A DNA stretch of 64,000 nucleotides from an uncultured Candidatus Saccharibacteria bacterium. Its GTDB lineage: Bacteria > Patescibacteriota > Minisyncoccia > Phycocordibacterales > CAYSCM01. Below the pieces are notes generated by a model. It saw only the letters and a list, made by a program, of their open reading frames with translations, searched no databases and was not told the DNA's origin. The stretch is from assembly GCA_964429815.1 (NCBI GenBank), contig CAYSCM010000001.1, positions 1 to 64,000 of the forward strand, written 5' to 3'. This document shows, piece by piece, positions 1 through 64,000 of the stretch (positions within the stretch are counted from its first letter, which is position 1; each line of letters starts with the position of its first letter). The translations under genes were made by a program, and so were the position numbers.

Positions 1-3000
1 CGTTGCTTCCCGCTTGGAGACAGCCGGGGCCGGTGGCGAGGTAGAGGGCGGAGGTCGAGGCGTTCCCGGAGACGTAGAGGTTAGTCGTCGTCGCGGAGGT
101 ACCGGTGGCATTCACGAAGGTGACGTTCTGGAGGGTGGTCGAGGCGGTGACGAGGAGGTTGGTCGTGGTGGCCTGACCGGCAATGGTGAGGCCGCTGCCC
201 TGGGTTCCCCCGCCGATCGTCGAGGAGCCGGAGGAGAGGAGGGTACTGAAGGTGCCAAGCCCGGTTGAGGTGAGGTTCCCTGCGGAGAGGACGGTGGCAA
301 AGAGGTTGGTGGAGGAGGCGGTCGTTGCGAAGAAGGAGGTGCTGGTTGCCTTGGTGGTGGTGGCGTTCCCCGAGGAGATGAGGTCGATGAGGCGGGTCAC
401 CCCAGCGTCGGTCACCGAGAGGAGCGTGGTCGACGCCTGGTTGACGAGCTCGAGGGCCTTGGTGGTTGAGGAGGTGCCGCTTCCCCACAGTGTGAGCTTT
501 CCGTACCCGGGAGTCGAGGTGCCGATCGTCGTCGTGCCCGAGACGTTGAGGGCGCCGATGACCGTCGAGGAGGCCCCCGAGATGAAGCCGGTGCTCCTCC
601 AGAGGGAGGAGGTGGCGTTGGTCCAGCTGACGTAGTCGGCGAGGGCCGTGGGGACGACGTAGTCGGTGCCGGCAAGGGCTGTGGTGACCAGGCCGCTGCT
701 CGTCTTGAGCAAGCCGTCCCCGGTTCCCAGGTAGAGGTTGCTGGTCGAGGCGGTGGTGGCGAAGAGGGTCGTGGTGGTGGCGTTGGTGGCGGTGGCGTTG
801 CCGGTCACCGTGAGGGAGCCCACCGTTGAGGAGGCGCGCACCGTGAGGTAGGTGAGGGCGACGGTGCCGGTGGCGTCGATGGAGAGTGCGGAGACGGAGC
901 TGGTGGCGAAGGTGCCCGCCGAGCTCGTGGCGAGGTAGAGGTTCCCGCCGGCGTTCCTGAAGCTCCAGTGGGCGTTCCCGAGCGAGGAGGAGTCGGAGAG
1001 CGTGAGCTGGGGACCGGTCGAAGAAGCAATTTGGAGGGCCCACTGGGGAGAGGTGGTGCCGATGCCGACCTTGAGGGCCGTGTTGGGTGAGATGGCGAAG
1101 GCGTCCGTGGTGGAGGTGGCCCACTTGGAGTTGGCCTGGAGGGCGCAATTGAGGTTGGTCGAGGTGATGAGGCCGTTGCTTCCCGCTTGGAGACAGCCGG
1201 GGCCGGTGGCGAGGTAGAGGGCGGAGGTGGAGGCGGTGCCGGAGACGTAGAGGTTAGTCGTCGTCGCGGAGGTACCGGTGGCATTCACGAAGGTGACGTT
1301 CTGGAGGGTGGTCGAGGCGGTGACGAGGAGGTTGGTCGTGGTGGCCTGACCGGCAATGGTGAGGCCGCTGCCCTGGGTTCCCCCGCCGATCGTCGAGGAG
1401 CCGGAGGAGAGGAGAGTGGCGAAGGTGCCGAGTCCCGTTGAGGTGAGGTTCCCTGCGGAGAGGACGGTGGCAAAGAGGTTGGTGGAGGAGGCGGTCGTTG
1501 CGAAGAAGGAGGTGCTGGTTGCGGCGGTTGAGGTGGAGCGGGTGATGTTGGCGAAGATGGTGGCTCCCGTGAAGGTGTTGTTGTCGCTAAGGAGCGTTGA
1601 GGAGGCGGCGGTTATGCTGCTGCAGGTGACCAATCCAGAGGCGCTGGTGAGCAGGGCAGTTCCGGCGGCGCAGGGGCCGACTCCCAGGTAGAGGGCGGAG
1701 GTGGAGGCGGTGGTGGCGAAGAGGGTCGTGGTGGTGGCGTTGGTGGCGGTGGCGTTGCCGGTCACCGTGAGGGAGCCCACCGTTGAGGAGGCGCGCACCG
1801 TGAGGTAGGTGAGGGCGACGGTGCCGGTGGCGTCGATGGAGAGCGCGGTGCCCGTCGCATTGAGAGAATCCGAGCTCGTGCCGATGCGGAAGATGCCGCC
1901 GATGTTGGAGAGGAGCCAATGTTTGAGGTTAGTCCCGGCGTTGGTGTTCGTGACGGCGATGTAGGGCGTGGCGGAAGCTACCTGGAGGCTCCATGCGGGC
2001 GTCGAGGTGCCGATGCCGACCGATACCGTGTCCTTCCCTGAGGTGCCGCCAAGCACGATGGCACGACTGATGCCAACATTCGCACCTGCGCCGATCGCGG
2101 TCGAGGAGGCGATGTTGTCCACACCGGTCGAAACATCGGCGAGATTACCGACGAAGACACTCGAGCTCACGTTCGTCGGATTAAAAGCTGCGGCATAGCC
2201 GAGCGCGACGTTGTTGGAGCCCGTCTGATTGCCCAAGAGTGCTGAGTCGCCGAGAGCCACGTTGTACGAGCCGCTCGTGTTGTTCTGAAGCGCCACGTAC
2301 CCTACCGCGGTGTTGTGAGAACCGCCGTTTCCGCTGATAAGGGCCGAAGCGCCGAGCGCCGTGTTGTAGGAGCCAGTCCCGTTAGTGAAGAGCGCTGAAT
2401 CGCCGACTGCAGTGTTTTGCGTGCCCGAGGTGTTGTTGGTAAGAGCTACGTTACCGAACGCACTGTTGTTGCTGCCGCCGACGTCTTTGAGGAGCGCCTG
2501 GGAGCCAACCGCGGTGTTGGCTGTGCCTCCTGAAACAGCCTTCAGCGTGTTGTATCCAAGCGCAGTGTTGTCGGTATCACTCACGCCTGCGGCCGCACCT
2601 GAGAGAAGACCGATGTAGATGCTGTGTGAGCCCGTTGGCAATTCGACAAAACGCGTGCCGTTCCAGTAGAGACCGGTAGCAACGAAGTTCGTATCGTTGA
2701 GGGTCGAGGTGCCGGTTCCCTGAACAATGAGGTTCCCTGTTGTTGTTGCCCCACCGGAAATGGTAAGCCCTGACGCTTGGGTTCCCCCACCTATCGTCGA
2801 TGAAGCTGTCGCAAGGAATCCCCCGAGTACCTCAAGTTTGGTGTTAAGCGAGGTGGTCGCGGTGCCGCCGATCACCACCGCTAGTGCGGCATTTGGATAA
2901 ATAGTTAAACCATTGGTCGAGGTTGCAAATTTGTCGGTATTGATGCCCCCACAGGAAGCGCCCGAGACCACTCCCGACCCATTCACTTGGAGACACTGGG

Positions 3001-6000
3001 TCGACCCATTCCCCACCCCAGAGACTACGAGGGCGGAGGTGGAGGCGGTGCCCGTTACCGCCAGGGTCGTCGTGGTGGCGTTGGTGGTCGTCGCATTGAG
3101 AGCGGTGAAGTTTTGGAGCGTCGAGGAGCCGGTAGCAAGGAGGTTGCTGAAGGTGCCAAGCCCGGTTGAGGTGAGGTTCCCTGCGGAGAGGACGGTGGCA
3201 AAGAGGTTGGTGGAGCTGGCCGTGGTGGCAAAGAGGGTCGTGGTGGTGGCGTTGGTGCCGGTGGCGTTTTGGAAGTTCGTGCCCAGGCCGTCGACGTAGA
3301 AGAGCGAGGTGCTGGCGGCGTTCACGACCGAGAGGATGCGTCCCCCGGCATCGATGCTCGTCGGCGCTCCCCCGCCCCACAGCGTGAGCTTCGCGTAGCC
3401 CGTCGAGGTGCCGACCGTGGAGGAGGCGAGGCTCGTGAAGCCGCCGGTGAGGGTCGAGAGGCCGGTGACCGAAAGAGTGCTGCCGAAGGCGCCGCTCCCG
3501 CTGCTCGTGAGGTTCCCTGTCGAGAGGATGGTCGAGAAGAGGTTCGTCGAGCTCGCGGTGGTGGTGAAGAGGGTGGTTCCCGTCGCGTTGGTGAAGGTGA
3601 AGGAGCCGAGGGTGCCCACCGTGAGGGAGCCGATGGTCGCGCTGTTGGCGAAGAGGTTGGTGGTCGAGGCGTTCCCGGAGACGTAGAGGTTAGTCGTCGT
3701 CGCGGAGGTACCGGTGGCATTCACGAAGGTGACGTTCTGGAGGGTGGTCGAGGCGGTGACGAGGAGGTTGGTCGTGGTGGCCTGACCGGCAATGGTGAGG
3801 CCGCTGCCCTGGGTTCCCCCGCCGATCGTCGAGGAGCCGGAGGAGAGGAGGGTACTGAAGGTGCCAAGCCCGGTTGAGGTGAGGTTCCCTGCGGAGAGGA
3901 CGGTGGCAAAGAGGTTGGTGGAGGAGGCGGTCGTTGCGAAGAAAGAGGTGCTGGTTGCGGCGGTTGAGGTGGAGCGGGTGATGTTGGCGAAGATGGTGGC
4001 TCCCGTGAAGGTGTTGTTGTCGCTAAGGAGCGTTGAGGAGGCGGCGGTTATGCTGCTGCAGGTGACCAATCCAGAGGCGCTGGTGAGCAGGGCAGTTCCG
4101 GCGGCGCAGGGGCCGACTCCCAGGTAGAGGGCGGAGGTGGAGGCGGTGGTGGCGAAGAGGGTCGTGGTGGTGGCGTTGGTGGCGGTGGCGTTCACGAAGG
4201 TGACGTTCTGGAGGGTAGTGGAGCCGGTAGCAAGGAGGTTGCTGAAGATGCCAATCCCGGCTGAGGTGAGGTTGCCCGCGTTGATGGAGGTGGCGTAGAG
4301 ATTCGAGGTGCTTGCGACCGATGCGAAGAGGTTCGTGGTCGTCGCCGAGGAGCCTGTAGCGTTTTGGAAGGTAAGGTTCTGGAGCGTTGAGCTTCCGGTC
4401 GCCAGGAGGTTGCTGAAGGTGCCGATACCCGAGCTTGTGATATTTCCTGCGGAAAGAACCGTTGCAAAGAAGTTCGTGGAACTTGCCGTCGTCGCAAATA
4501 AGGTGGTGGTCGTCGCATTGGTGCCGGTGGCGTTGCTGAACGTGATGTTTTGGAAAGTAGAGGAAGCCGTCACGAGGAGGTTGGTGGTGGTAGCCTGGCC
4601 GAAAACCGTGAGACCGCCCCCTTGCGTACCGTTGCCGATGGTCGAAGAAGCGTAGGCGGTGAGGCCGCCGTTGAATTGCGTGAGGGTCGAGGTTGCGTTG
4701 CCCGCAAGCTGAAATGGATACGCTCCGCCACCGCCTGAGCCGCACGCCGCGCCGGTAGCTGAAACGACGCCAGTGCCGGAAATCTGGAGACACTGCGTCG
4801 AGCCGTTCCCAAGACTCGAAATGATAAGCGCAGAGGTCGAGGCGGTGCCGGAGATGGCGAGGTTTGTGGTAGTGGCATTCGTGGTCGTCGCATTGAGAGC
4901 GGTGAAGTTTTGGAGGGTCGTGGAGCCAGTGGCCAGAAGTGTGCTGAAGGTGCCAAGCCCGGTCGAGGTGATGTTACCGGCAGAGAGGACCTGGGCAAAG
5001 AGGTTGGTGGAGCTTGCGGTCGTCGTAAAGAAGTTGGTGGTCGTCGCCGAAGTACCCGTCGCATTCCCAAAGGTGAAGTTCTGGAGGGTGGTCGAGGAGG
5101 TCGCGAGGAGGTTTTGGAGCGTAAAGAGTTTCGTCGTTTTGTTGAACGTAAGCGTTGCGTCGCCGTTGAAGATTCCGCCGTCATTGAACTGCACTTGCGT
5201 GTTGCTTCCGCCCGGGTTACCCGCGCCGCCGTTGGCCGAGAGGCAGGTGCCGTTGATCGAGAAGCATCCGCCGGTGAGATTGACCCCGCTTGCGAGGGTC
5301 GAGGTGGCCGTGGTCGTCGAGACATTGAGGACCCCGACCGAAAGGCCGTTCGCGACCGTCGAGGTACCGGCCGAGGCGGAAATGGAGAGGGCGCCGGTGA
5401 GCGTTCCTCCTGAAAGCGGCAAAAAATTAAGTCCGGTGATCGAGCCAGTGAACGTGGCGTCTTTGATGGTTACACCCGAAAGATTGTCGATGCGGTTGGT
5501 GAGGGCGACGCTCTGGAAATTGGCGGGGGTGGTCGGCGCAGGGCCGCTGAACTGAGGCGTGAACGCGCCGATCGAATAGATTTGGGCGGAAAGTTTATTG
5601 TCGAGCTGGTTCAAACGCACATTGAGCTCATCCTCGGTCACACTTGCAGCGACCGGCGCGCCGGAGACGACGCGCTCGATGGTTCGTTCAACCACTTTCG
5701 TCTGAATGGGCTGAACGATGACCGTCGTACTCGCCGGATTGTACGTGTTGTTGATATTTTGAACGATCGACTGCAGGGAAGGTGCGTTTGAACGGTGCCA
5801 GAACGCGAATATGGCCCGCACCGCGTCATATACGCTCGTCGGAGAAAGCGCGAAAGCGACCTGATGCGAAGCGCTCACGAGTCCCGAGCGGATCTGCGCA
5901 ACACTTACCGAAAATGCTTGCCCAAGACTTTCATGAGCCAACGTATCACGGAGGTTTCGAGAAGAGGAAGACGCTACGGAAGAGGAAACGGCTGCAAGGG

Positions 6001-6871
6001 ATGCGGACACTTTAGAGCGACCAGCGTCTGTGAGTTTGAGGCCAGACACTAAAGACGTGCCGGCAGCGCGTCCGAGCTCAGCGCTACCAACGGAAGCGTG
6101 GAAGGAGAGAGTCCCGATAGTTTCCCCAAGCTGATGGATAACCGCCACGTACCTATCACCAAACTCTAAAACAGCGGATAGAGCCGCTCTGTGAACGTTT
6201 CCACCAAAGGCGCTCACGGCGTCGGAGAACGTCAGAGGCTCTAAGTGAAGTTCAGAGATGGTCCGGGCAAGTTCACGGCCGCTTCGATACACACCAAAAG
6301 CTGGCTCATTCGCATGAATCGCGCCGTAGGAAAGAACAACCGCAACATCACGGAGCACGTTCAACTCTCCTGGAGAAGGAGCAATGCGCTGCGCCAAGGC
6401 GTGGAATCTCTCTGCTCCGGCAAACACTCCCCCGAAGACGCTGAAAAATATAAGCGCTGCCGTCGCCACCCGAAACGCTGAAAATGCAAATATGGCCGGC
6501 TTTCGTGGGGATGTCAACGTTCTGACAGGAAAAGAAATCGGCGCAAGAGGTTCAACCACGACCTTCATCGAAGGGACGAGTCTCGTTGCCGGTTTGGAAA
6601 GAGGTCTCGCGATTGAGTGCGTGGCAGCACGATGGTACTCAGCCTTACGAGATCGACTTATTTCCGCATGGCGACGGGTAGTGCCCTCCTTTGCCTTTGC
6701 GATAAACGCGAAGAAAGATTCCTCTTCAACGTACCAGATGCGCCCGATGCGCTGCGCAGTTACCTTGCCCTGACGACATAGGCGAGCGACATAATCGTTG
6801 GTATAACCAACAGCATCCCCGGCTGCTTTTGCGGAAAGATATTTTTTATCGAGGATGAGTAGGTGACTCAT
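1..6871 (-). CDS. Giant repeat-rich surface/adhesin-like protein, partial (C-terminus beyond window start). N-terminal excisionase-type HTH (HTH_17-like), single TM helix, then >2,200 aa Thr/Ser/Asn/Ala/Gly-rich repeats with Hep_Hag/YadA-head-like and tail-fibre-like modules
   Basis: Manual translation of minus frame (codon top position = 1 mod 3): ATG at 6871-6869 preceded by in-frame TAA (6901-6899); no stop down to position 1 (no M-to-stop ORF in this frame in the ORF track because it runs off the window). N-term MSHLLILDKKYLSAKAAGDAVGYTNDYVARLCRQGKVTAQRIGRIWYVEEE = Xis-like HTH; hydrophobic KPAIFAFSAFRVATAALIFFSVFGGVFAGA = TM; downstream low-complexity repeats e.g. STLQNVTFVNATGTSATTTNLYVSG, NTAVGDSALFTNGTGSYNTALGASAL, KVGIGTTSPQWALQIASST. 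Wrong-frame ORFs in the track (His/Arg-rich, Pro-rich, Gly/Glu-rich) are artefacts of this frame. Confidence 0.75.
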   Translation of the reverse strand, partial: MSHLLILDKKYLSAKAAGDAVGYTNDYVARLCRQGKVTAQRIGRIWYVEEESFFAFIAKAKEGTTRRHAEISRSRKAEYHRAATHSIARPLSKPATRLVPSMKVVVEPLAPISFPVRTLTSPRKPAIFAFSAFRVATAALIFFSVFGGVFAGAERFHALAQRIAPSPGELNVLRDVAVVLSYGAIHANEPAFGVYRSGRELARTISELHLEPLTFSDAVSAFGGNVHRAALSAVLEFGDRYVAVIHQLGETIGTLSFHASVGSAELGRAAGTSLVSGLKLTDAGRSKVSASLAAVSSSVASSSSRNLRDTLAHESLGQAFSVSVAQIRSGLVSASHQVAFALSPTSVYDAVRAIFAFWHRSNAPSLQSIVQNINNTYNPASTTVIVQPIQTKVVERTIERVVSGAPVAASVTEDELNVRLNQLDNKLSAQIYSIGAFTPQFSGPAPTTPANFQSVALTNRIDNLSGVTIKDATFTGSITGLNFLPLSGGTLTGALSISASAGTSTVANGLSVGVLNVSTTTATSTLASGVNLTGGCFSINGTCLSANGGAGNPGGSNTQVQFNDGGIFNGDATLTFNKTTKLFTLQNLLATSSTTLQNFTFGNATGTSATTTNFFTTTASSTNLFAQVLSAGNITSTGLGTFSTLLATGSTTLQNFTALNATTTNATTTNLAISGTASTSALIISSLGNGSTQCLQISGTGVVSATGAACGSGGGGAYPFQLAGNATSTLTQFNGGLTAYASSTIGNGTQGGGLTVFGQATTTNLLVTASSTFQNITFSNATGTNATTTTLFATTASSTNFFATVLSAGNITSSGIGTFSNLLATGSSTLQNLTFQNATGSSATTTNLFASVASTSNLYATSINAGNLTSAGIGIFSNLLATGSTTLQNVTFVNATATNATTTTLFATTASTSALYLGVGPCAAGTALLTSASGLVTCSSITAASSTLLSDNNTFTGATIFANITRSTSTAATSTSFFATTASSTNLFATVLSAGNLTSTGLGTFSTLLSSGSSTIGGGTQGSGLTIAGQATTTNLLVTASTTLQNVTFVNATGTSATTTNLYVSGNASTTNLFANSATIGSLTVGTLGSFTFTNATGTTLFTTTASSTNLFSTILSTGNLTSSGSGAFGSTLSVTGLSTLTGGFTSLASSTVGTSTGYAKLTLWGGGAPTSIDAGGRILSVVNAASTSLFYVDGLGTNFQNATGTNATTTTLFATTASSTNLFATVLSAGNLTSTGLGTFSNLLATGSSTLQNFTALNATTTNATTTTLAVTGTASTSALVVSGVGNGSTQCLQVNGSGVVSGASCGGINTDKFATSTNGLTIYPNAALAVVIGGTATTSLNTKLEVLGGFLATASSTIGGGTQASGLTISGGATTTGNLIVQGTGTSTLNDTNFVATGLYWNGTRFVELPTGSHSIYIGLLSGAAAGVSDTDNTALGYNTLKAVSGGTANTAVGSQALLKDVGGSNNSAFGNVALTNNTSGTQNTAVGDSALFTNGTGSYNTALGASALISGNGGSHNTAVGYVALQNNTSGSYNVALGDSALLGNQTGSNNVALGYAAAFNPTNVSSSVFVGNLADVSTGVDNIASSTAIGAGANVGISRAIVLGGTSGKDTVSVGIGTSTPAWSLQVASATPYIAVTNTNAGTNLKHWLLSNIGGIFRIGTSSDSLNATGTALSIDATGTVALTYLTVRASSTVGSLTVTGNATATNATTTTLFATTASTSALYLGVGPCAAGTALLTSASGLVTCSSITAASSTLLSDNNTFTGATIFANITRSTSTAATSTSFFATTASSTNLFATVLSAGNLTSTGLGTFATLLSSGSSTIGGGTQGSGLTIAGQATTTNLLVTASTTLQNVTFVNATGTSATTTNLYVSGTASTSALYLATGPGCLQAGSNGLITSTNLNCALQANSKWATSTTDAFAISPNTALKVGIGTTSPQWALQIASSTGPQLTLSDSSSLGNAHWSFRNAGGNLYLATSSAGTFATSSVSALSIDATGTVALTYLTVRASSTVGSLTVTGNATATNATTTTLFATTASTSNLYLGTGDGLLKTSSGLVTTALAGTDYVVPTALADYVSWTNATSSLWRSTGFISGASSTVIGALNVSGTTTIGTSTPGYGKLTLWGSGTSSTTKALELVNQASTTLLSVTDAGVTRLIDLISSGNATTTKATSTSFFATTASSTNLFATVLSAGNLTSTGLGTFSTLLSSGSSTIGGGTQGSGLTIAGQATTTNLLVTASTTLQNVTFVNATGTSATTTNLYVSGNASTSALYLATGPGCLQAGSN
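2..350. repeat. Intragenic near-identical DNA repeat, copy A (matches 1176..1524 and 3661..3953)
   Basis: Identical 62-aa and 84-aa spurious ORFs recur at 112..300 / 1285..1473 / 3721..3909 and 14..268 / 1187..1441; direct sequence comparison shows ~300 bp identity with 1-2 mismatches. Confidence 0.85.
1176..1750. repeat. Intragenic near-identical DNA repeat, copy B (about 510 bp near-identical to 3676..4186; 1707..1852 also matches 751..896)
   Basis: ORF 1356..1691 (+) is identical in protein to 3792..4127 (+); direct comparison of the nucleotide rows. Confidence 0.85.
3661..4190. repeat. Intragenic near-identical DNA repeat, copy C
   Basis: See copies A and B; offsets are 2436 bp (B to C) and 3603 bp (A to C). 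Confidence 0.85.
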
Positions 6872-9650: not shown

Positions 9651-9668
9651 GGAGGGAATACTAGCAGA

Positions 9669-10643: not shown

Positions 10644-10682
10644 AGAGGTCAGCCTACGACACAGGAGCCTTTTAGCAAAACG

Positions 10683-11018: not shown

Positions 11019-11024
11019 ATGACC

Positions 11025-11519: not shown

Positions 11520-11536
11520 GGGTCCAGTATACTTCA

Positions 11537-52309: not shown

Positions 52310-52353
52310 GGTACCTGATGGGTGGGAAAAGAAAAGCCGCGAAAAGCTTCCTC

Positions 52354-56669: not shown

Positions 56670-56771
56670 ACGCTAGCAGATAAGCCAATAAATACGAACT
56701 GGATGATGGATAGTTGACTATTGCAGATAATCGTGCTACAATTTTGCCCGGTCTACAAAGCCGAGGAGGCA

Positions 56772-57362: not shown

Positions 57363-57390
57363 TAGACGTCCGCTCTCGTTCTTAACACTT

Positions 57391-57424
57391 TCGGCCGCAC
57401 CCACAGGGTGCGGCTGATTTTTCT
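57391..57424 (+). terminator. Rho-independent terminator CGGCCGCACCC-acag-GGTGCGGCTG + ATTTTTCT
   Basis: Seen directly; near-identical copy at 57986..58019. Confidence 0.7.
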
Positions 57425-57451
57425 TGACTATTTAAAATAGTGTGATATTAT
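57424..57451 (+). promoter_or_regulatory. Sigma70-like promoter TTGACT-N16-TATTAT, with SD AGGAGAGGA before the ATG at 57483
   Basis: Seen directly. Confidence 0.55.
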
Positions 57452-57482
57452 CTTCCTAGACTAGAAATTTCAGGAGAGGAAC

Positions 57483-57977
57483 ATGAGCGTGGATAGACTA
57501 CTAATCTCCAAAGAAACAAAAACCCATGAATGGTATCTTCAAAAAAAAGCCCGCGCCGCAGGCGAAACGGGCTATGATCTCTTCTTCAGCAGACTGCAGC
57601 CGTCGGACTTCAGTTTTGTCCTAGAGAAAGAGGCGGGCCGAGTCCTAATTGTAGGGACGAATTCTCAAATTCGCAATTTTTTTGCGGACCAAGAAAAAAT
57701 CCTTCGCGAGGTCTGCACAAGACGTGCCATAGCAAATCCGACGTTCATGGCCGCTGCCTCAACCAACTGGTTCTGGCAAAAATTCTTCAACTATGGAAAT
57801 TTTTTGGACAACCATCCCGAGGGAGCGACCCTTCCCGCGTTGGTTATTGCCTCGGGCGACATCCGCCACTACGACGACTGGGGTCGCGGCACCACTATCG
57901 ACAAGATCGATACGTGGCTCTCTGGCCATTGCGAGCGCTTCGGTGTACCGATTGAGTACATCAAAAGCGCCAATTAA
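57483..57977 (+). CDS. Hypothetical protein
   Basis: 164 aa; flanked by its own promoter and a pair of matching terminators. Confidence 0.5.
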   Translation: MSVDRLLISKETKTHEWYLQKKARAAGETGYDLFFSRLQPSDFSFVLEKEAGRVLIVGTNSQIRNFFADQEKILREVCTRRAIANPTFMAAASTNWFWQKFFNYGNFLDNHPEGATLPALVIASGDIRHYDDWGRGTTIDKIDTWLSGHCERFGVPIEYIKSAN

Positions 57978-57985
57978 TTAAGACT

Positions 57986-58019
57986 TCGGCCGCACCCATA
58001 GGGTGCGGCCGATTTTTAC
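57986..58019 (+). terminator. Rho-independent terminator TCGGCCGCACCC-ata-GGGTGCGGCCGA + TTTTTA (possibly bidirectional)
   Basis: Seen directly. Confidence 0.7.
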
Positions 58020-58996
58020 TTTCCGGGATTTTTTTCGTACCAGGCGATTGTTTTTTTGAGGCCATCTCGTAGTGCCGTCACCGCTTCCCAGCCGGTATCG
58101 CGTTTTATTTTTGAGACGTCCGGAACACGTCGCTTCACGCTTCCCGTGGGACCTGGTTTGCGTTCAATAACGTTCGGCCTCCATCCGGCACGTTCGAACA
58201 AGACTTCGACGAGTTCCCCGATGTTAGTCTCGACGCTCGTACCGATATGATACGTCTCCCCGTCCGTTTTAGAACTTTCCATTACCGCCTGCATCGCCTC
58301 GACCGCATCATCAATGTAGCAAAATGAGCGCGTCTCATCGGCGCCGTAGAGGGCGAACGGATCTTCGCGTCGCTCGATGCGCCCCAACACATCGGGAATC
58401 ACGTGGTGGCCGGAGCGGGGTCCGTAGAAATTATGGGGGCGTACAACGACCGTGCGAAGTCCATACTGTTTTGCATAACTGTTGAAGAGTAGTTCTCCTA
58501 TCAACTTAGTACCGGCATACGACCACCGGGGATTACGAGGGTCAGCGATGACAAGCGGGACATTTTCAAGCGTAGGCAGCGGCAAGATGCCGAAGGCTTC
58601 AAGGGCACCGGCATATGCCTCGTTCGACGAGGTAAAAAGTATTTTTGACCCCTTCTTGTTCTTCTTAAACCACTCGAGCGCATGGACATTAAGAAGAAGG
58701 GCGGAGCGGAGAATTTCCGCAGGTATCTCATAAAAAAGCTTGGTCGAGTTAATGGCGGCTAGATGGTAGACGTCGTCAAAATCGAAGCCGAGCTTCTCCC
58801 AAGCTCTTGCTTGCGTGAGGTCGCACTGTAGGAACACAACTCCCCTCTCCTTAGTGAGAGCCCGGAACTCTTCGTCATGCTGCCCGAGCGCAAAGTTATC
58901 TACCAGGGTGAGCTCGTACCCAGCACCCTGTAATCGCTTAGCTAGGTGGTAGCCGACAAATCCTGCTGCCCCGGTTATCAAAACTCTTTTTGCCAT
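58016..58996 (-). CDS. NAD-dependent nucleotide-sugar epimerase/dehydratase
   Basis: Start at MAKRVLITGAAGFVGYHLAKRL (cat 58994-58996). Confidence 0.85.
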   Translation of the reverse strand: MAKRVLITGAAGFVGYHLAKRLQGAGYELTLVDNFALGQHDEEFRALTKERGVVFLQCDLTQARAWEKLGFDFDDVYHLAAINSTKLFYEIPAEILRSALLLNVHALEWFKKNKKGSKILFTSSNEAYAGALEAFGILPLPTLENVPLVIADPRNPRWSYAGTKLIGELLFNSYAKQYGLRTVVVRPHNFYGPRSGHHVIPDVLGRIERREDPFALYGADETRSFCYIDDAVEAMQAVMESSKTDGETYHIGTSVETNIGELVEVLFERAGWRPNVIERKPGPTGSVKRRVPDVSKIKRDTGWEAVTALRDGLKKTIAWYEKNPGK

Positions 58997-59907
58997 GATA
59001 GTCTTCGCTTTATCGCGATCCGAAGAGCCTTGAGCGCTTCCCGACCGGAAACGATCGGCCTTGGCCACTCCGAGAACCATTCAGGAAGGATAGGGAACCG
59101 CTTCTCCGCTCTGAGTTGCACGTTATTTGCCTTGATGGCTCCGCCGAGAAGTTCCATGCTCTTCCCCGCTCGGCCGTGCGCATAGAAAAAGGCGCGCATA
59201 TCTTTCGGCAGACAATGCCCGCCGAAGGCTTTGCCATAGCGGAGGTACGGCTTTCGTTCGAACAAAAAATTGACGACGTTCTCTATTTTGGAGAGCTCCT
59301 TTTGGCTGGTCGGGGTTCCCATCGCGTTACCGAATTCATTCACGAATGCGATACGCATGGCATTCCAGACATTCGACAAATATTTTATGTACGATGCTTC
59401 TTCGGGGGTGCCTGCGAAAGATTTCACCGAACGTTTACGCCACTCATCGAGAAAGCTCGGTTTCTTTTTCCCGGTGCGTGCGCCAACGACGAAGTAGTAC
59501 GGATTGAGGCATTCCTCTACCGCCTTCTTTTCGTGCAAAAATTCAGGAACATAGAAATCAAATGCGAGTTTATCCAGTGATTGTGGTATGACGGTAGAGC
59601 GTAGTATGACCGTCCCCTTCGCTCCCTTCAGGGTCTCAAGGGCTTTTTCTATCGGGGAAACATCCTGAATGCCTTCTTCGGATACGCGATCGCCCACACA
59701 GACCACGTACACGGTGTTCGGGCCATCGTGTTCACGTGCGTGCGAGAGAGAAGCGATTTCCGAGCATTCTTTCTGATATTTTGGGACGTATTTGAGCGAA
59801 GTCTCTGCCACGTCATAGCAAAAAACCGGATATCTCATGATCCGCAGCGAGATGGCATTTGCTTGGCCGACCCAACCGTATCCAACGATGACAATCGTCT
59901 CCTTCAT
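58978..59907 (-). CDS. Nucleotide-sugar (UDP-glucose/GDP-mannose) 6-dehydrogenase family, short form
   Basis: IVIVGYGWVGQANA; catalytic Cys motif GGHCLPKD. Confidence 0.75.
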   Translation of the reverse strand: MKETIVIVGYGWVGQANAISLRIMRYPVFCYDVAETSLKYVPKYQKECSEIASLSHAREHDGPNTVYVVCVGDRVSEEGIQDVSPIEKALETLKGAKGTVILRSTVIPQSLDKLAFDFYVPEFLHEKKAVEECLNPYYFVVGARTGKKKPSFLDEWRKRSVKSFAGTPEEASYIKYLSNVWNAMRIAFVNEFGNAMGTPTSQKELSKIENVVNFLFERKPYLRYGKAFGGHCLPKDMRAFFYAHGRAGKSMELLGGAIKANNVQLRAEKRFPILPEWFSEWPRPIVSGREALKALRIAIKRRLSWQKEF

Positions 59908-59936
59908 GGCGAAAAACTATAACATAAAAATGGCCT

Positions 59937-61073
59937 TTAGGTAACGGCCCGAAGGGACTCGAGAATGAGGCGCGCCCGCGCTTCCCAGCTGTAGCGTTTC
60001 GCGAGTTCGCGAGCGACCCGACCTCGATCCACAAATTTGCCCCGAAGTCCTTCGAGCACCGTTTTCAAAAGAATTTCCCCATCGCCAGCGGGAACGAATG
60101 CCGCCTCCCGGTCGGAGAGAATTTCCCGCACCGAGGGAAGATCCGTCGTGACAATAGGAATTCCGCTCGCCATGTAGCTGAACATTTTAAGCGGTGACAT
60201 AAACTTGGCGTAGTGTTCCGTGTTTGGATAGTTCATGACGTGCACGTTGGCGGCTCGGAAATAACCGACCATGTCCTTTTGTGATGGAGTAGCATTAATA
60301 TGAAATTGACTATCTCGAAGACCGGCAGAGTGTGCCATATCGATCGCACGAGCCCTATCGACCTGCGACATACCAGCAAGAAGTAAATACGCGTTTGGTT
60401 CCTCATGGAGTAGTTTCGGAAACAGACGTATAAGCTCCTCGACGCCCTTGCCCCTTCCCATGGTGTGGAGTGCCCCTACATACCCGACCACCTTCGCTTC
60501 GGAGGGGATGCCGTTGCCCCGACGCCACACTCCTACATCAAACGGCTCACGGTAGGGTCGCACATCGACTCCATCGTGAGCTACCACGATCTTCCCAGGA
60601 TCCACCCCTTCGCTCTTCAGAAGCTCTGCGTGTGCTCCCGTGATGGCAACAATGAGCCGAGCACGTTGAAATAGAATTCGAGCGAATCGATTCAGTTTTT
60701 TGGTGTGAACTTCCCACACTACCCTCCCCGTTTTTGCGACAAGAGAAAGCGCCACCTCATCACGACCGTAGATGATATCCGCTCTCGAACTGCGAGCGTA
60801 GAGGTACGAAGCGAAAGCAAACGTTACCACCTGTACGAAAAAGCCAGCGCTCCCGAATCGCACGAGGTCGAGCGAGAAAAGCCTTACGATGCGAAACTGC
60901 GTGCGCACATCATAAAACTCAAACGGATCGACAGCAAGCCGACCGAAGCGCCACGGTACTGCGAGAATCACCTCATGGCCTTCACGGGCAAAGGCCTCGC
61001 ACATCTTCACGACCTGGAGGCCATGCGCCTTCTCGGTCGGCAGTCGGATGTTGGCGACGTAGAGGATTTTCAT
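59937..61073 (-). CDS. Glycosyltransferase family 4 (GT-B)
   Basis: KMFSYMASGIPIVTTDLPSVREIL. Confidence 0.85.
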   Translation of the reverse strand: MKILYVANIRLPTEKAHGLQVVKMCEAFAREGHEVILAVPWRFGRLAVDPFEFYDVRTQFRIVRLFSLDLVRFGSAGFFVQVVTFAFASYLYARSSRADIIYGRDEVALSLVAKTGRVVWEVHTKKLNRFARILFQRARLIVAITGAHAELLKSEGVDPGKIVVAHDGVDVRPYREPFDVGVWRRGNGIPSEAKVVGYVGALHTMGRGKGVEELIRLFPKLLHEEPNAYLLLAGMSQVDRARAIDMAHSAGLRDSQFHINATPSQKDMVGYFRAANVHVMNYPNTEHYAKFMSPLKMFSYMASGIPIVTTDLPSVREILSDREAAFVPAGDGEILLKTVLEGLRGKFVDRGRVARELAKRYSWEARARLILESLRAVT

Positions 61074-61876
61074 AGACTCCTGCGACGCTTATAGAGAAAA
61101 TTGAGCCAGCCGAACGCTAGGTTAAATGCGAGCTGCCGTGTCCACGAAAGATTCTCCTTCCAGGACTCATCGAGCTCTATTTTCTCACTCGCTTCCCCCT
61201 TCATACGGTTGCCACTTATTTGATGATGCGGAAAGGCCCGAAAAGAGAGCATGGCGGGTTCGTAGGAGAGGCCGACCGCTTCCAAGATGCGGGCGAGGGA
61301 TTCCTGCGGATGCGCAACAAGCTCCTCATAGCGCAAGAACAGGTAGCGCGCTTTGACCCTCCTGCGCAGAAGCTCGACTTTGGCGTTCATGAAAAACCAG
61401 CGCGAGAGCGAGAACCACACATGGGCTCCATATTTACGCAGATAGGATGAAAATACCCCGCGCCCGTCTCGCACTACGTGCACGATTACGGGGTCGGGGA
61501 GCGCCCGGCACATGAGTTCGGTATAGTCAGCGTTCTTTGATGAGTCGACAACGACCGAGGCCCCCTTGGTAGCGGCAGCCTTGGTATAGATGGTACGGAC
61601 ACGTTCTCGGTACTGCGCGATGTCGACCGCCTTCCCTGTCTTGGCGTAACGATAATTTTTTGAGCCGAATAGAAAACCGCTTTTGCTTCGGGCTACGTCA
61701 AAGAGTTCCCCTTTCGGGAGAATGTCCCGCCAAAAAGGGTCACTGGTGGGGTCCGAATCCTCCGAGACGAGCTCGCCGATGCCGATGACTTTCGAATGTG
61801 AGTCGAGAAGAAGGTCCAGGAGTGTTGAGCCACTGTGCCCACTTCCGAGGATAAAGAGTACTTGGGGGATTCGCAT
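61070..61876 (-). CDS. Sulfotransferase (PAPS-dependent), second copy
   Basis: Start at MRIPQVLFILGSGHSGSTLL (P-loop-like 5'-PSB); VHVVRDGRGVFSSY (3'-PB). Confidence 0.7.
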   Translation of the reverse strand: MRIPQVLFILGSGHSGSTLLDLLLDSHSKVIGIGELVSEDSDPTSDPFWRDILPKGELFDVARSKSGFLFGSKNYRYAKTGKAVDIAQYRERVRTIYTKAAATKGASVVVDSSKNADYTELMCRALPDPVIVHVVRDGRGVFSSYLRKYGAHVWFSLSRWFFMNAKVELLRRRVKARYLFLRYEELVAHPQESLARILEAVGLSYEPAMLSFRAFPHHQISGNRMKGEASEKIELDESWKENLSWTRQLAFNLAFGWLNFLYKRRRSL

Positions 61877-61974
61877 GAGAGTGAGTGTTACACGTAAACT
61901 AAATCGACATCGGGAAAGTTGCAATGAGGAGCCTGCGTTTTACTTGTGGCGCTGAGGGGATATAATCCTTACCT

Positions 61975-63243
61975 ATGGACGACCGGGAACGTAGGGTGTG
62001 CCGTATATCCGGCGAGCCTCTCACCGAACTTTTCACACTCGGCGAACTTTACATTTCCGATTTCATCCCGCGAGAGGGAAAGCCCCGTATGAAAAACAAG
62101 GTTGAACTTAAGCTTATGCTTGCACCAAAATCCGGTTTGGTACAGCTCGCGCACACCGCCCCTTTCGATGAGATGTACGGCGAGTATTGGTACCGCTCGG
62201 GCACCAATGAGACCATGCGTCGGGAGCTTAAGGACATCGCAGATTCCGCTTCAAGACTTATGCGACTTGCGAAGGGAGACGTGGTAATTGACATCGGCTG
62301 TAATGACGGGACGCTTTTGAGTTTCCTGGGCACCGAGGTCGTCCGCATAGGCTTTGACCCCGCACGCGGAGACTATCCCGAGCTTGCAAAAAAACATGCA
62401 GACCTTGTCGTGACCGACTACTTCACCTGCGCTGCGTTCAAAAAATCGAGCTTTGGCAAGCAAAGGGCTAAGGTTATCACATCGATCGCGATGTTTTATG
62501 ACCTCGAGAAGCCCGATGAGTTCGTTGCGGATATTGCCGAGGCTCTCGACGATGAAGGACTTTGGATAATACAGATGAGCTACACTCCGCTCATGCTCAA
62601 GCAGTTGGCCTTTGACAACATCTGCCACGAGCACCTTGAGTACTATACGCTCCATTCGCTCCAGTACCTCCTCGCGAAGCATGGGCTCAAGGTCGTTGAC
62701 TGTCAGCTCAATGACGTCAATGGAGGGAGTTTCAGGATCTATATCCGCAAGGAGAAAGCTACTCCCGCCACATTTGCGACCGCGCCATACCGTTATGTAG
62801 CGCAATTCCGGGTCGATTCCATACTCGCGTATGAGAAAACCCTCAACCTAACCGACCCGAAGACCTACCTCGACTTTTTCGAACACGCGAAACGATTGAA
62901 AAAAGAAACCGTCGACTTTATCGTATCCGAAAAGAAAAAGGGTAAGAAGATCTGGGCGTATGGGGCCTCCACCAAGGGCAATACACTCCTGCAGTGGTTC
63001 GGTCTCAATGAGACCCACATCGACGGCATAGCGGAGCGCTCTCCGGCAAAGTTCGGGCTCAAGACAGTGGGCAGTAATATCCCAATTTATTCAGAAGAGG
63101 AGATGCGGGCCGCAAAGCCCGATTACCTTTTGGTCCTGCCGTGGCACTTTATCGAAGAGTTCGTGCGGCGAGAACAGGCGTTCCTCAACGGCGGCGGGAA
63201 ATTCATAGTTCCCTGCCCGAAGTTCGAAATAGTTGGCGCCTAG
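61975..63243 (+). CDS. NDP-hexose C-methyltransferase (TylCIII-type)
   Basis: CRISGEPL zinc-ribbon-like N-terminus, VIDIGCNDGTLL SAM motif, C-methyltransferase C-terminal domain. Confidence 0.75.
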   Translation: MDDRERRVCRISGEPLTELFTLGELYISDFIPREGKPRMKNKVELKLMLAPKSGLVQLAHTAPFDEMYGEYWYRSGTNETMRRELKDIADSASRLMRLAKGDVVIDIGCNDGTLLSFLGTEVVRIGFDPARGDYPELAKKHADLVVTDYFTCAAFKKSSFGKQRAKVITSIAMFYDLEKPDEFVADIAEALDDEGLWIIQMSYTPLMLKQLAFDNICHEHLEYYTLHSLQYLLAKHGLKVVDCQLNDVNGGSFRIYIRKEKATPATFATAPYRYVAQFRVDSILAYEKTLNLTDPKTYLDFFEHAKRLKKETVDFIVSEKKKGKKIWAYGASTKGNTLLQWFGLNETHIDGIAERSPAKFGLKTVGSNIPIYSEEEMRAAKPDYLLVLPWHFIEEFVRREQAFLNGGGKFIVPCPKFEIVGA

Positions 63244-63246
63244 TCG

Positions 63247-64000
63247 TTATTCCCTCCTCTGAGCCGCCTCTACCATTTCTTCGACTAGTTCCTTGAAGGA
63301 AATCTTTGGCTCCCATTCGAGCTCCTCAGCAATTTTTGCGTTGTCTCCACGGCGCGGATACATTTCCGCAGGGCGATAGAACTCGCTCGCCACGCGCACA
63401 CGCACAGTACCGGACGGGTCCACTCCGACCTCATATTGCCCTTCCGCTTTCCACGCGATATCCATACCAAGACGTTTCGCAGCTATTTCGATAAACTCCC
63501 GTACGGTATGGGCCCTGCCAGAGGCTATGACGTAGGACTCCGCCCTATCGTGCTGCAGGGTCTTCCAAACGGCTTGGACGACGTCTCTGGCGTGTGACCA
63601 ATCGCGCCTCACATCGAGATTCCCTATCCGCAACTCCTGCTCTTTCCCCAGAGAAATGCGCGCGAGCGTCGTCGCTATTTTTTGGGTCACGAATTCCCTT
63701 CCACGACGAGGACTCTCGTGATTAAAAAGAATTCCAGACACGGAAAAAATATGGTGGTCACGCCGATATGCCTCGATAAGGTTATGCGCAGCTGTTTTTC
63801 CGACGCCGTAGGGGTTGCAGGGCCGAAAGGGCGTATTCTCATTTTGCGGGCTTTCTGACGCTTCGCCGTACATTTCTGCCGATGATGCTTGGAACAGTCT
63901 CGATCCAGGCAAAAATTCTCGCATCGCCTCGAGGATAGTGAGGGGAACGAACGCAGTGCTCTCAAGGGTTTTGCGCGGGTTCTCCCAGGGGTTTGCCACC
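63247..64000 (-). CDS. gmd: GDP-mannose 4,6-dehydratase, partial (N-terminus beyond window end)
   Basis: SSAEMYG, ILFNHESPRRG, close similarity in pattern to the enterobacterial Gmd C-terminal half. Confidence 0.9.
   Translation of the reverse strand, partial: VANPWENPRKTLESTAFVPLTILEAMREFLPGSRLFQASSAEMYGEASESPQNENTPFRPCNPYGVGKTAAHNLIEAYRRDHHIFSVSGILFNHESPRRGREFVTQKIATTLARISLGKEQELRIGNLDVRRDWSHARDVVQAVWKTLQHDRAESYVIASGRAHTVREFIEIAAKRLGMDIAWKAEGQYEVGVDPSGTVRVRVASEFYRPAEMYPRRGDNAKIAEELEWEPKISFKELVEEMVEAAQRRE

What the first reader, a model, noticed from the sequence alone, without database searches (positions are those of the whole stretch)
1..64000. Physical coupling of a Ser/Thr/Asn-rich giant surface protein to a 45-kb glycan-modification super-locus
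The giant protein is dominated by Thr/Ser and contains many N-x-S/T triplets (NATGTS, NVTF, NLTS, NITS and others). The same window encodes a flippase, an O-antigen-ligase-like/TPR protein, GT4 glycosyltransferases, nucleotide-sugar pathways and sulfotransferases. The hypothesis is that the locus builds a complex glycan that decorates this fibre, in S-layer/pilin-like O-glycosylation (or less likely N-glycosylation). The Wzy_C-TPR protein would be the candidate protein O-oligosaccharyltransferase (PglL/PilO-like enzymes share the Wzy_C fold).
Basis: inference. Interest (0 to 1): 0.55.

Follow-up and report, generated by a model that had tools for sequence, protein, structure and literature searches.

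The report
Candidate-phylum glycan ligase near giant fibre
This stretch of a tiny-genome bacterium (Patescibacteria/Paceibacteria) holds a huge membrane-anchored fibre built from phage-tail-fibre parts and, 12 kb away, a sugar-attaching enzyme conserved across the group beside a strain-specific sugar-making island of at least 52 kb; the fibre could be sugar-coated by this machinery, but nothing in the sequence shows it.

Summary
The giant ORF (2..6871, minus strand, at least 2,290 aa, cut by the window edge) is 31% Thr+Ser. The Wzy_C-TPR protein, Wzx flippase, GT4s, PAPS synthase, sulfotransferases and nonulosonic-acid genes are present.

The "coupling" is loose. Eleven unrelated genes (GatB, Obg, SecA and others; 11.9 kb) separate the giant gene from the ligase.

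The giant belongs to a large family (cytoplasmic HTH, one TM, phage-tail-fibre modules) in a conserved slot after GatB. Thr/Ser/N-x-T richness is a family and repeat trait, not evidence of glycosylation.

Verdict: an O-oligosaccharyltransferase role is plausible. Glycosylation of this fibre is untested (about 0.25).

The parts
2..6871 (-). Giant membrane-anchored fibre gene (at least 2,290 aa; C-terminus beyond the window start)
   Evidence: Stop-free frame and translation. Composition. No Pfam, NCBIfam or PDB sequence hit for the whole protein. PHROG virion structural protein 2e-20 and tail spike 2.9e-11 in the last 1,000 aa. Short-read assemblies of the source sample break 629-662 aa into it.
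6692..6871 (-). N-terminal cytoplasmic HTH (excisionase/HTH_17-like) module of the giant protein
   Evidence: HTH_17 E 0.0013, below the Pfam cut-off. 29 % identical over 104 aa to the neighbouring HTH protein. 3,984 cluster representatives share the module.
6413..6496 (-). Single transmembrane segment (residues ~126-153): signal-anchor, so the rest of the protein is outside
   Evidence: Hydropathy scan. Positional counterparts in relatives have their TM at residue ~91-143.
5462..5734 (-). Conserved stalk motif (…VVERTIERVV…LNVRLNQLDNKLSAQIY…) shared with related giants
   Evidence: Motif found in P0262, P0293, P0294 and P0357. P0262's best match is to query residues 372-459.
2..5089 (-). Thr/Ser/Ala/Asn-rich fibre: about 16 copies of a 57-aa repeat, near-identical 300-nt DNA repeats, a Hep_Hag-like NTA(V/L)G run and 'GIGTSTP' modules
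   Evidence: hmmsearch of the repeat unit. DNA repeat families D1-D4. Translation. 51 % best-segment match to a phage tail fibre, L089 3450-7301.
7133..8137 (-). Small HTH-TM protein (333 aa as called), paralogous in its N-terminus to the giant; conserved right after GatB
   Evidence: HTH_17 2.7e-5. Gene call of 333 aa. Present after GatB in 15 of 15 relatives with enough flank.
8226..18077 (-). Conserved co-directional backbone: GatB, Obg, holin-like (10683-11018), NUDIX, ABC-2 permease, ABC ATPase, nucleotidyltransferase (13297-13746), PG_binding protein, unknown, SecA
   Evidence: Pfam. Gene calls. NCBIfam: generic YadH/DrrAB-type ABC-2 exporter. Same order in L002, L091, L093 and L094.
18726..20897 (-). 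Wzy_C-TPR enzyme (723 aa): WaaL-fold membrane domain with 13 helices plus an extracytoplasmic TPR domain; candidate glycan ligase / O-oligosaccharyltransferase
20931..23833 (-). PAPS synthase (ATP sulfurylase/APS kinase) and an unknown soluble 358-aa protein, co-directional and nearly contiguous with the ligase
   Evidence: NF004040 779 bits against a 669 cut-off. Pfam. Gaps of 33 bp and -1 bp.
23996..34454 (.). Nonulosonic/ulosonic-acid module: HAD, CMP-sugar synthetase (x2, PseF-like), cupin, NeuB/PseI-like synthase, AAA_33 kinases, two D-2-hydroxyacid dehydrogenases, KdsC-like HADs, unknown 342-aa protein
   Evidence: Pfam. NCBIfam scores below cut-offs. A similar cassette lies between Obg and GatB in L094.
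34565..64000 (.). Remainder of the sugar island in the window: radical SAM, methyltransferases, sulfotransferases (37391-38299; 61070-61876), SIS, ThDP enzymes, Wzx flippase (44216-45496), RfaE-II-like nucleotidyltransferase, PfkB, TagF-like, DegT, GT4 (55530-56669; 59937-61073), UDP-Glc DH, C-methyltransferase, GDP-Man dehydratase
   Evidence: Pfam. NCBIfam. Continues with an epimerase, five more GT4s and an Asn synthase homologue in L087.

Best explanation
The window is one conserved, co-directional cell-envelope neighbourhood of a Paceibacteria (candidate phyla radiation) genome. Its order is: [strain-variable sugar island] - Wzy_C-TPR ligase - SecA ... Obg - GatB - small HTH-TM protein - giant HTH-TM fibre.

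Proposed mechanism. The island's cytoplasmic enzymes build a lipid-linked heteroglycan that probably carries a nonulosonic acid, methyl groups, sulfate and possibly a heptose. Wzx flips it to the outer face of the single membrane. The Wzy_C-TPR enzyme is WaaL-fold with an intact Arg/Arg/His site, and its catalytic loop and TPR both face outward. It transfers the glycan en bloc to a non-lipid-A acceptor. In an organism of a group reported to lack LPS, and given the WsfB-like architecture, the most likely acceptors are Ser/Thr of exported surface proteins.

The giant protein is a type-II membrane-anchored fibre, probably trimeric, made of phage-tail-fibre modules with a cytoplasmic HTH. It is a plausible but unproven acceptor. 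Its nearness to the island is inherited synteny, not a dedicated operon.

Shown: gene content, fold, catalytic residues, synteny and family distributions. Inferred: lipid carrier, topology, acceptor class and any glycosylation of the fibre. Step probabilities: island makes a lipid-linked surface glycan 0.85; the ligase uses it 0.7; the acceptor is protein 0.45; the giant fibre is among the acceptors about 0.25.
For: Organism: the ligase and GatB relatives that carry a source name or record title are all Patescibacteria.

Link between ligase and island: co-directional with unk358 and PAPS synthase, gaps -1 and 33 bp. Sugar-gene homologues lie upstream in 49/58 relatives while the content varies: Wzx 26, NeuB 17, PAPS synthase 3, sulfotransferase 1 of 80. 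A conserved enzyme next to variable glycan genes fits a ligase with relaxed donor specificity.

Synteny: SecA downstream in 47/50. The full block is seen in L002, L091, L093 and L094.

Fibre: HTH, TM and fibre architecture. Family of 3,984 representatives including giants of 1.1-3.9 k aa. Peptidase_S74 C-termini in counterparts. Phage tail-fibre homology.
Against: No direct evidence for the acceptor. The PglL_A motif is absent, and no sequence comparison with WsfB/WsaB was possible. No initiating phosphoglycosyltransferase or Wzy polymerase was seen in the 73 kb examined. The TPR is well conserved whereas the fibres are hypervariable, which argues for a conserved acceptor or partner. Three of 11 judgeable relatives lack a long gene in the fibre slot but keep the ligase. 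Housekeeping genes (GatB, Obg) inside the block show that proximity here need not mean shared function. Topology is inferred, because model coordinates could not be inspected. That this particular genome lacks LPS genes was not checked; it rests on the literature for the group.
Confidence: 0.45

Rival explanations
1. One reading: the island exists to decorate this giant fibre, with the Wzy_C-TPR protein as its dedicated O-oligosaccharyltransferase.
For: The ligase and the giant gene are the two ends of one conserved co-directional block that also contains SecA, 8.2 kb apart in L093 and 11.9 kb here. The fibre is the largest exported Thr/Ser-rich protein nearby. In L094 a NeuB/CMP-synthetase cassette sits directly beside the GatB-HTH-giant genes. 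Known O-oligosaccharyltransferase genes are often adjacent to their target genes (PMC3643930).
Against: Eleven unrelated genes intervene. The ligase family is in at least 574 species with about 45-50 % identity, whereas the fibre's N-terminal 460 aa had only two weak partial hits in the word-indexed search of 5.8 billion proteins. L024, L034 and L047 keep the ligase and sugar genes without a long fibre gene in the slot. Thr/Ser/N-x-T richness is a repeat and family trait also seen in a phage tail fibre.
Confidence: 0.2
2. The enzyme ligates the island's variable glycan onto a conserved non-protein acceptor of the monoderm envelope: a glycolipid anchor, or a wall polymer exported by another route. 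This would be a Gram-positive analogue of O-antigen ligation or of dual-chain cell-wall polysaccharide assembly. The fibre is then unrelated.
For: The closest solved fold is WaaL, a glycan-to-glycolipid ligase. The conserved enzyme and conserved TPR suggest one conserved acceptor. The backbone carries a conserved ABC-2 exporter and a nucleotidyltransferase near the ligase. The island has a TagF-like glycerophosphotransferase.
Against: The ABC exporter is a generic YadH/DrrAB type, not demonstrably a glycan exporter. No such acceptor is known in these bacteria, whose envelope is described as unclear (PMC5220378). The Wzy_C-plus-TPR precedent found in a monoderm is a protein O-oligosaccharyltransferase.
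Confidence: 0.3
3. The Wzy_C-TPR protein is the Wzy-type polymerase of the Wzx-dependent pathway rather than a ligase.
For: No separate Wzy candidate was found; the unknown 407-aa protein next to Wzx has no TM segment. The Pfam family is named after Wzy.
Against: Wzy polymerases are typically repeat-unit specific and highly divergent between glycan types (established knowledge). This protein stays 40-50 % identical while the neighbouring sugar genes change completely. The best structural match by far is a ligase. The island was not seen to its end.
Confidence: 0.08
4. N-glycosylation of the N-x-S/T sites of the fibre.
For: 68 N-x-S/T triplets.
Against: No STT3/PglB/AglB-type or HMW1C-type enzyme appears among the Pfam hits of the window. 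There are zero D/E-x-N-x-S/T sites. The sequons derive from repeat consensus positions.
Confidence: 0.02

Closest known systems
WsfB / WsaB, S-layer protein O-oligosaccharyltransferases of Paenibacillus alvei and Geobacillus stearothermophilus (PMC2943079)
   Same: Monoderm host; Wzy_C domain; C-terminal TPR (WsfB); encoded with a large surface-glycan locus. That locus also contains an Asn-synthase homologue, methyltransferases and a nucleotidyltransferase. Transfer is proposed to be coupled to secretion.
   Different: The slg loci use a Wzm/Wzt ABC exporter, whereas this island has a Wzx flippase and the nearby ABC-2 system is generic. The acceptor there is a defined S-layer protein encoded nearby; here no S-layer gene is seen.
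PglL / TfpO (PilO) / PglS / TfpM O-oligosaccharyltransferases of Gram-negative bacteria (PMC3643930, PMC9829042)
   Same: Wzy_C domain with the essential His and two Arg; en bloc transfer from a lipid carrier; relaxed glycan specificity; gene often near the target gene.
   Different: The PglL_A motif (PF15864) is absent. This enzyme has an extra 13th helix and a 250-aa TPR domain. No pilin gene is adjacent. The host is a monoderm from the candidate phyla radiation.
WaaL O-antigen ligase (PDB 7tpg/7tpj; E. coli WaaL)
   Different: Only 18-21 % identity and hhalign probability 6.6 %. The acceptor lipid A-core is reported absent from this bacterial group. It also has an added TM13 plus TPR.
Phage tail fibres/spikes with a C-terminal Peptidase_S74 intramolecular chaperone
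   Same: The giant protein's modules hit PHROG tail-spike and virion proteins and a phage tail fibre at 51 % (best segment). Syntenic counterparts end in Peptidase_S74.
   Different: It is chromosomal, in a conserved slot after GatB, and anchored in the cell membrane by an N-terminal TM with a cytoplasmic HTH. It is not part of a virion module.
Membrane-tethered one-component regulators (ToxR/CadC type)
   Same: Cytoplasmic N-terminal DNA-binding-type domain, single TM and an extracytoplasmic domain.
   Different: The HTH is excisionase/HTH_17-like rather than winged-helix OmpR-type. The outside part is a fibre of thousands of residues. No regulatory role has been tested.

Membership tests
Wzy_C / WaaL-fold (GT-C type) glycan ligases | Pfam Wzy_C domain above the gathering score | tested here: met
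   58.5-59 bits against a 31.7 cut-off.
Wzy_C / WaaL-fold (GT-C type) glycan ligases | WaaL-like 12-TM fold with a large outward loop between TM9 and TM10 | tested here: met
Wzy_C / WaaL-fold (GT-C type) glycan ligases | Catalytic Arg, Arg, His (EcWaaL R215, R288, H338; NmPglL R224, R298, H349) | tested here: met
   R216, R290 and H340 are invariant in 30 family members and aligned to the E. coli residues by hhalign. Residue roles are from PMC3643930.
WaaL (lipid A-core O-antigen ligase) in function | Host makes lipid A-core as the acceptor | not testable with these tools
   Only 64 kb of the genome was seen. All named family members are Patescibacteria, a group reported to lack lipid A/LPS genes (PMC5220378).
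PglL-type O-oligosaccharyltransferase | PglL_A motif (Pfam PF15864), which separates PglL from WaaL | tested here: not met
   No hit at E <= 0.01 on the whole protein, nor at E <= 10 on the membrane domain.
PglL/TfpO-type O-oligosaccharyltransferase | Demonstrated transfer of glycan to Ser/Thr of a protein | not testable with these tools
   Needs glycoproteomics or heterologous reconstitution.
WsfB-like monoderm S-layer O-oligosaccharyltransferase | Wzy_C domain followed by a C-terminal TPR, in a monoderm, encoded with a surface-glycan locus | tested here: met
   Architecture. Island adjacency. Definition from PMC2943079.
WsfB-like monoderm S-layer O-oligosaccharyltransferase | Sequence relatedness to WsfB/WsaB beyond the Wzy_C domain | not tested
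Wzy O-antigen polymerase | Sequence co-varies with repeat-unit structure (highly divergent between glycan types) | tested here: not met
   40-65 % identity and a constant length of about 725 aa across relatives whose sugar genes differ.
Wzx-dependent surface-glycan locus | Wzx flippase, glycosyltransferases, nucleotide-sugar genes; initiating phosphoglycosyltransferase | tested here: inconclusive
   Wzx, at least 7 GT4s and many sugar-nucleotide genes are present. No Bac_transf or Glycos_transf_4 initiating enzyme was seen within the 73 kb examined.
Phage-tail-fibre-like proteins | Homology to tail fibre/spike families; C-terminal Peptidase_S74 chaperone | tested here: inconclusive
   PHROG hits 2e-20 and 2.9e-11. 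Phage fibre match. Peptidase_S74 is seen in syntenic counterparts, but the C-terminus of the window protein lies outside the window. The AF2 model was unusable.
HTH_17 / excisionase-type DNA-binding domain | Pfam HTH_17 at or above the gathering score | tested here: inconclusive
   Giant N-terminus 19.4 bits and small neighbour 24.8 bits, against a cut-off of 27. The precomputed Pfam listing marks HTH_17 as weak or faint in counterparts.

The most novel reading that the evidence does not exclude
The Wzy_C-TPR enzyme is the general protein O-oligosaccharyltransferase of Paceibacteria. It is kept next to SecA because it glycosylates proteins as they emerge from the translocon. The HTH-anchored, phage-tail-fibre-like giants at the other end of the same conserved block are its main substrates. 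The cell's host-attachment fibres would then be coated with strain-specific (here sulfated, nonulosonic-acid-containing) glycans, while their cytoplasmic HTH couples the fibre to DNA or gene control.
Probability: 0.12. Interest if true: 0.7.

Novelty: new member of a known kind. Interest (0 to 1): 0.42.

Why it matters
How candidate-phyla-radiation bacteria build their envelope is described in the literature as unclear. These bacteria have tiny genomes and mostly appear to live attached to other cells. This analysis identifies a ligase family conserved across at least 574 species genomes. It has a WaaL fold and an outward-facing TPR, in organisms reported to lack LPS, and always sits between SecA and a rapidly changing sugar island. 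That makes it a concrete, testable candidate for how these cells put strain-specific glycans on their surface. Here more than 50 kb of an approximately 0.5 Mb contig is devoted to that glycan.

The analysis also defines a large uncharacterised family of membrane-anchored fibres built from phage-tail-fibre modules with a cytoplasmic HTH. These are candidates for host attachment and for phage-host module exchange. The specific claim that the glycan decorates the fibre remains a hypothesis.

Tried and rejected
- **PDB sequence searches.** The whole ligase gave only TPR hits, and its membrane domain gave none. The giant protein gave none.
- **Word-indexed homology search with the giant's N-terminal 460 aa.** It returned only two weak partial hits and no self-hit. 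Exhaustive HMMER was needed to reveal the family.
- **First tblastn of the giant against relatives.** It found nothing because low-complexity masking was on. It was repeated unmasked.
- **AlphaFold of giant residues 1330-1700 without an alignment.** pLDDT was 40, so the model was unusable and not searched.
- **Exact look-up of the ligase from the GTG start.** It failed; the called start is the Met three codons later.
- **tRNA and Rfam scans of the window.** Nothing was found, so there is no tRNA-marked island boundary.
- **Treating the conserved ABC-2 system plus small nucleotidyltransferase as a TagGH/TagD or Wzm/Wzt glycan exporter.** Rejected after NCBIfam showed a generic YadH/DrrAB type and RfaE-II-like scores below cut-off.
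- **Treating the unknown 407-aa protein beside Wzx as the Wzy polymerase.** Rejected, because it has no TM segments.
- **Foreign origin of the giant gene, suggested by its GC.** Not supported. High GC2 follows from Thr/Ser/Ala/Gly codons; GC3 of 0.81 with an NNC bias is noted but unexplained.
- **Literature.** No paper in the library links candidate-phyla-radiation bacteria to O-antigen-ligase-like enzymes or to this fibre family.


Full report
**1. What is in the window**

A stop-free frame on the minus strand runs from 6898 to the window start. It begins at Met 6871 and gives at least 2,290 aa. Pfam annotation of the other roughly 55 ORFs, with gene calls from matching public contigs, gives the following order. 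All genes from the giant through the PAPS synthase are on the minus strand.

| Coordinates | Gene or product |
|---|---|
| 2-6871 | Giant gene |
| 7133-8137 | Small HTH-TM protein |
| 8226-9650 | GatB |
| 9669-10643 | Obg |
| 10683-11018 | Holin-like protein |
| 11025-11519 | NUDIX |
| 11537-12313 | ABC-2 permease |
| 12315-13277 | ABC ATPase |
| 13297-13746 | Small nucleotidyltransferase |
| 13929-14789 | PG_binding protein |
| ~14794-15288 | Unknown |
| 15552-18077 | SecA |
| 18726-20897 | Wzy_C-TPR protein |
| 20931-22757 | PAPS synthase |
| 22757-64000 | Continuous run of sugar-pathway genes |

The sugar run continues at least 9 kb beyond the window with an epimerase, five more GT4 glycosyltransferases and an Asn-synthase homologue. 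The island is therefore at least 52 kb. No tRNA or Rfam family is present.

**2. Check of the observation**

The giant protein is 17.8 % Thr, 13.1 % Ser, 12.7 % Ala, 11.2 % Gly and 6.8 % Asn, and has almost no charged residues outside its N-terminus. It has 68 N-x-S/T triplets against 47.2 +/- 5.6 in shuffles. However, 43 of them sit in about 16 copies of a 57-aa repeat (TLQNxTFxNATGTxATTTNLF...) that covers 37 % of the protein. None is preceded by the D/E that PglB-type enzymes need. Near-identical 300-nt DNA repeats explain why short-read assemblies of the source sample all break 629-662 aa into the gene.

The flippase, GT4s, sulfotransferases and nucleotide-sugar genes are all confirmed. 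NCBIfam adds three points:
- The ATP sulfurylase/APS kinase is a bona fide PAPS synthase.
- NeuB, the two CMP-synthetases and DegT are divergent PseI/PseF/PseC-like enzymes.
- RfaE-II-like nucleotidyltransferases, a PfkB kinase, an SIS isomerase and HAD phosphatases could make a nucleotide-heptose.

The "physical coupling" is 11.9 kb with 11 unrelated genes in between.

**3. Organism**

The exact ligase and GatB proteins occur on an NCBI contig of 501,704 bp. The best non-self GatB match is 68 % identical. Every relative that carries a source name or record title is Patescibacteria/Paceibacteria: Kaiser-, Taylor-, Yonath-, Campbell-, Lloyd- and Zambryskibacteria. A Parcubacteria genome paper reports no lipid A/LPS genes and calls the envelope of all such bacteria unclear (PMC5220378). 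I did not check this genome itself for LPS genes. If the group trait holds here, a WaaL function in the strict sense is excluded.

**4. The Wzy_C-TPR enzyme**

- **Family.** More than 4,900 proteins, the top 120 at 42-65 % identity and about 725 aa. At least 574 species-representative genomes carry it.
- **Model.** A 30-sequence alignment gave a confident model, pLDDT 88.8 and pTM 0.82.
- **Catalytic residues.** hhalign against E. coli K-12 WaaL is weak overall. It still aligns EcWaaL R215/R288/H338 with the family-invariant R216/R290/H340. These residues are shared by WaaL and PglL (PMC3643930), and all known O-oligosaccharyltransferase classes carry Wzy_C with an essential His (PMC9829042).
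- **Topology.** The model has 13 membrane helices, one more than WaaL. Short-loop K+R counts are 8 inside against 3 outside. The catalytic loop (265-341) and the TPR (476-717) should therefore both face outward. This is an inference.
- **PglL signature.** PF15864 (PglL_A) is absent even at E <= 10.
- **Architecture precedent.** Wzy_C plus a C-terminal TPR is reported for WsfB, the S-layer O-oligosaccharyltransferase of monoderm Paenibacillus alvei. Its locus also holds an Asn-synthase homologue and a nucleotidyltransferase, and transfer there is thought to be co-secretional (PMC2943079).

**5. Neighbourhood conservation**

Across 80 loci from species-representative genomes:
- SecA lies just downstream of the ligase in 47 of the 50 loci with enough flank.
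- At least one homologue of the window's sugar genes lies upstream in 49 of 58.
- The content varies: Wzx in 26, NeuB in 17, GDP-mannose dehydratase in 13, PAPS synthase in 3 and a sulfotransferase in 1 of 80.

In the 65 %-identical relative L002, the backbone (ligase-MurB-SecA-PG_binding-ABC-NUDIX-Obg) is the same but the sugar genes differ. In the window the ligase is co-directional with, and 33 bp from, the PAPS synthase. A conserved enzyme at the edge of a variable glycan island behaves like a ligase with relaxed donor specificity, not like a repeat-specific polymerase.

**6. The giant protein**

It has an N-terminal excisionase/HTH_17-like module (below the Pfam cut-off), a basic linker, one TM segment (about 126-153), a conserved stalk motif and then the Thr/Ser-rich fibre. 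The gene next door encodes a small paralogue, 29 % identical over 104 aa.

The word-indexed search found almost nothing. Exhaustive HMMER found 3,984 cluster representatives sharing the N-terminal module. Most are 300-400 aa, but giants of 1,084-3,878 aa are included. These giants are all 10-17 % Thr and 10-13 % Ser, with 1-2.8 sequons per 100 aa. Four of the twelve share the stalk motif, and four contain the SDxRLK motif typical of the tail-fibre chaperone domain.

The last 1,000 aa hit PHROG virion/tail-spike families. A bona fide phage contig (tail fibres next to a DNA polymerase exonuclease subunit) encodes a 1,283-aa tail fibre with 51 % identity in the best segment.

**7. The fibre slot is syntenic**

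Unmasked tblastn shows an HTH gene directly after GatB in 15 of the 15 ligase loci with enough sequence. A second, long HTH-TM gene runs off the locus or contig end in 8 of 11 judgeable cases (at least 794 and at least 1,069 aa in two of them). L024, L034 and L047 have only the short gene.

Three complete examples confirm the block:
- **L091/L092:** SecA-holin-Obg-GatB-HTH-1,329 aa-2,535 aa, both large proteins with Peptidase_S74.
- **L093:** ligase-MurB-SecA-holin-Obg-GatB-HTH-2,220 aa, with ligase and giant 8.2 kb apart.
- **L094:** SecA-holin-Obg-[CMP-synthetase-cupin-NeuB-HAD]-GatB-HTH-1,957 aa.

The co-location of ligase and giant is thus ancestral. The conserved block is bounded by exactly these two genes, with variable DNA beyond each. 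Since GatB and Obg sit inside the block, proximity alone cannot be read as shared function.

**8. Interpretation**

The best-supported model has four steps:
1. The island makes a lipid-linked, heavily modified glycan.
2. Wzx flips it.
3. The WaaL-fold/TPR enzyme transfers it on the outer face to an acceptor other than lipid A.
4. Protein Ser/Thr is the most likely acceptor class (about 0.45), with the fibre as one candidate (about 0.25 overall).

The main rival (0.3) is ligation to a conserved glycolipid or wall polymer. Polymerase and N-glycosylation readings are unlikely. The ligase does not cluster with lipid-A-core ligases in any functional sense. The fibre is present in most but not all relatives that keep the ligase.

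**9. Novelty**

The library held no paper that mentions both the candidate phyla radiation and O-antigen ligases, and only one (unread) that mentions Patescibacteria with O-antigen ligase and glycosylation. A search for the fibre family returned nothing specific. The ligase is an uncharacterised, phylum-wide clade of a known enzyme kind. The fibre family is an unusual variant: a cell-anchored tail-fibre with a cytoplasmic HTH. The specific finding, glycan on fibre, remains a hypothesis of moderate interest.

Noticed in passing
window 2-8137; loci L017, L023, L025, L026, L036, L060, L076, L091-L094: A large uncharacterised family (3,984 cluster representatives) has an N-terminal excisionase-like HTH, one TM and a variable outside part from under 100 to over 3,700 aa. 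A short and a long member usually sit in tandem right after GatB. What a cytoplasmic HTH does on a giant surface fibre is unexplained.
   Followed up: partly
L089:3450-7301 (IMGVR_UViG_3300010938_000095): A phage tail-fibre gene shares modules with the cellular giant fibre (51 % in the best segment). This suggests exchange of fibre modules between these bacteria and their phages.
   Followed up: partly
L093:16663-18515; L094:15877-17666: Three tandem paralogous genes for secreted proteins of about 180-250 aa follow the giants in two relatives. They are 50-84 % identical and carry the motif SKGSGSF.IDHPLDP.NKLL.HSFVESP. The corresponding region of this genome lies outside the window.
   Followed up: partly
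L094:3657-7319: A CMP-synthetase/cupin/NeuB/HAD cassette homologous to window 23996-28604 is inserted between Obg and GatB, directly beside the HTH-giant pair.
   Followed up: partly
window 20931-22757, 37391-38299, 61070-61876: A PAPS synthase plus two sulfotransferases imply a sulfated glycan. Among 80 relatives' ligase loci, only 3 have the PAPS synthase and 1 has a sulfotransferase homologue, so sulfation is a strain-specific trait.
   Followed up: partly
window 22757-23833 and 26018-27046: Two soluble proteins (358 and 342 aa) have no Pfam, NCBIfam or PHROG hit and only weak mutual similarity (E 3e-5 over 45 aa). They flank the nonulosonic-acid genes and are candidate novel transferases.
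   Followed up: partly
window 34565-36307, 40597-42366, 48250-50269, 61975-63243: A B12/radical-SAM enzyme, an acetolactate-synthase-like ThDP enzyme, an E1 alpha/beta ThDP pair and a sugar C-methyltransferase lie inside the island. They point to unusual C-branched or C-methylated sugars.
   Followed up: no
L013:5863-9585, L051:5716-9429, L065:6781-9882, L071:6038-9553, L081:6572-9868: In several relatives the gene immediately upstream of the ligase encodes a 1,000-1,250-aa signal-peptide protein (lamin-tail, Ig-like, beta-helix or lipase-like domains). These are heterogeneous. They could be acceptor proteins or could be unrelated.
   Followed up: partly
window 2-5491: The repeat region of the giant gene has GC3 of 0.81 and a strong NNC codon preference (ACC 62 %, GCC 49 %, GGC 51 %), against GC3 of 0.49-0.75 in other genes. 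This produces the GC skew of +0.19 to +0.34 in the first 6 kb. The cause is unknown; it could be expression level or repeat homogenisation.
   Followed up: partly
P0357 (2,864 aa), about residues 1000-1330: One related giant carries an insertion that looks like an intein with an embedded nuclease-like domain, interrupting the fibre.
   Followed up: no
window 10683-11018; L002, L003, L091, L093, L094: A Phage_holin_4_2-family gene of about 110 aa is conserved just upstream of Obg in every relative examined.
   Followed up: no
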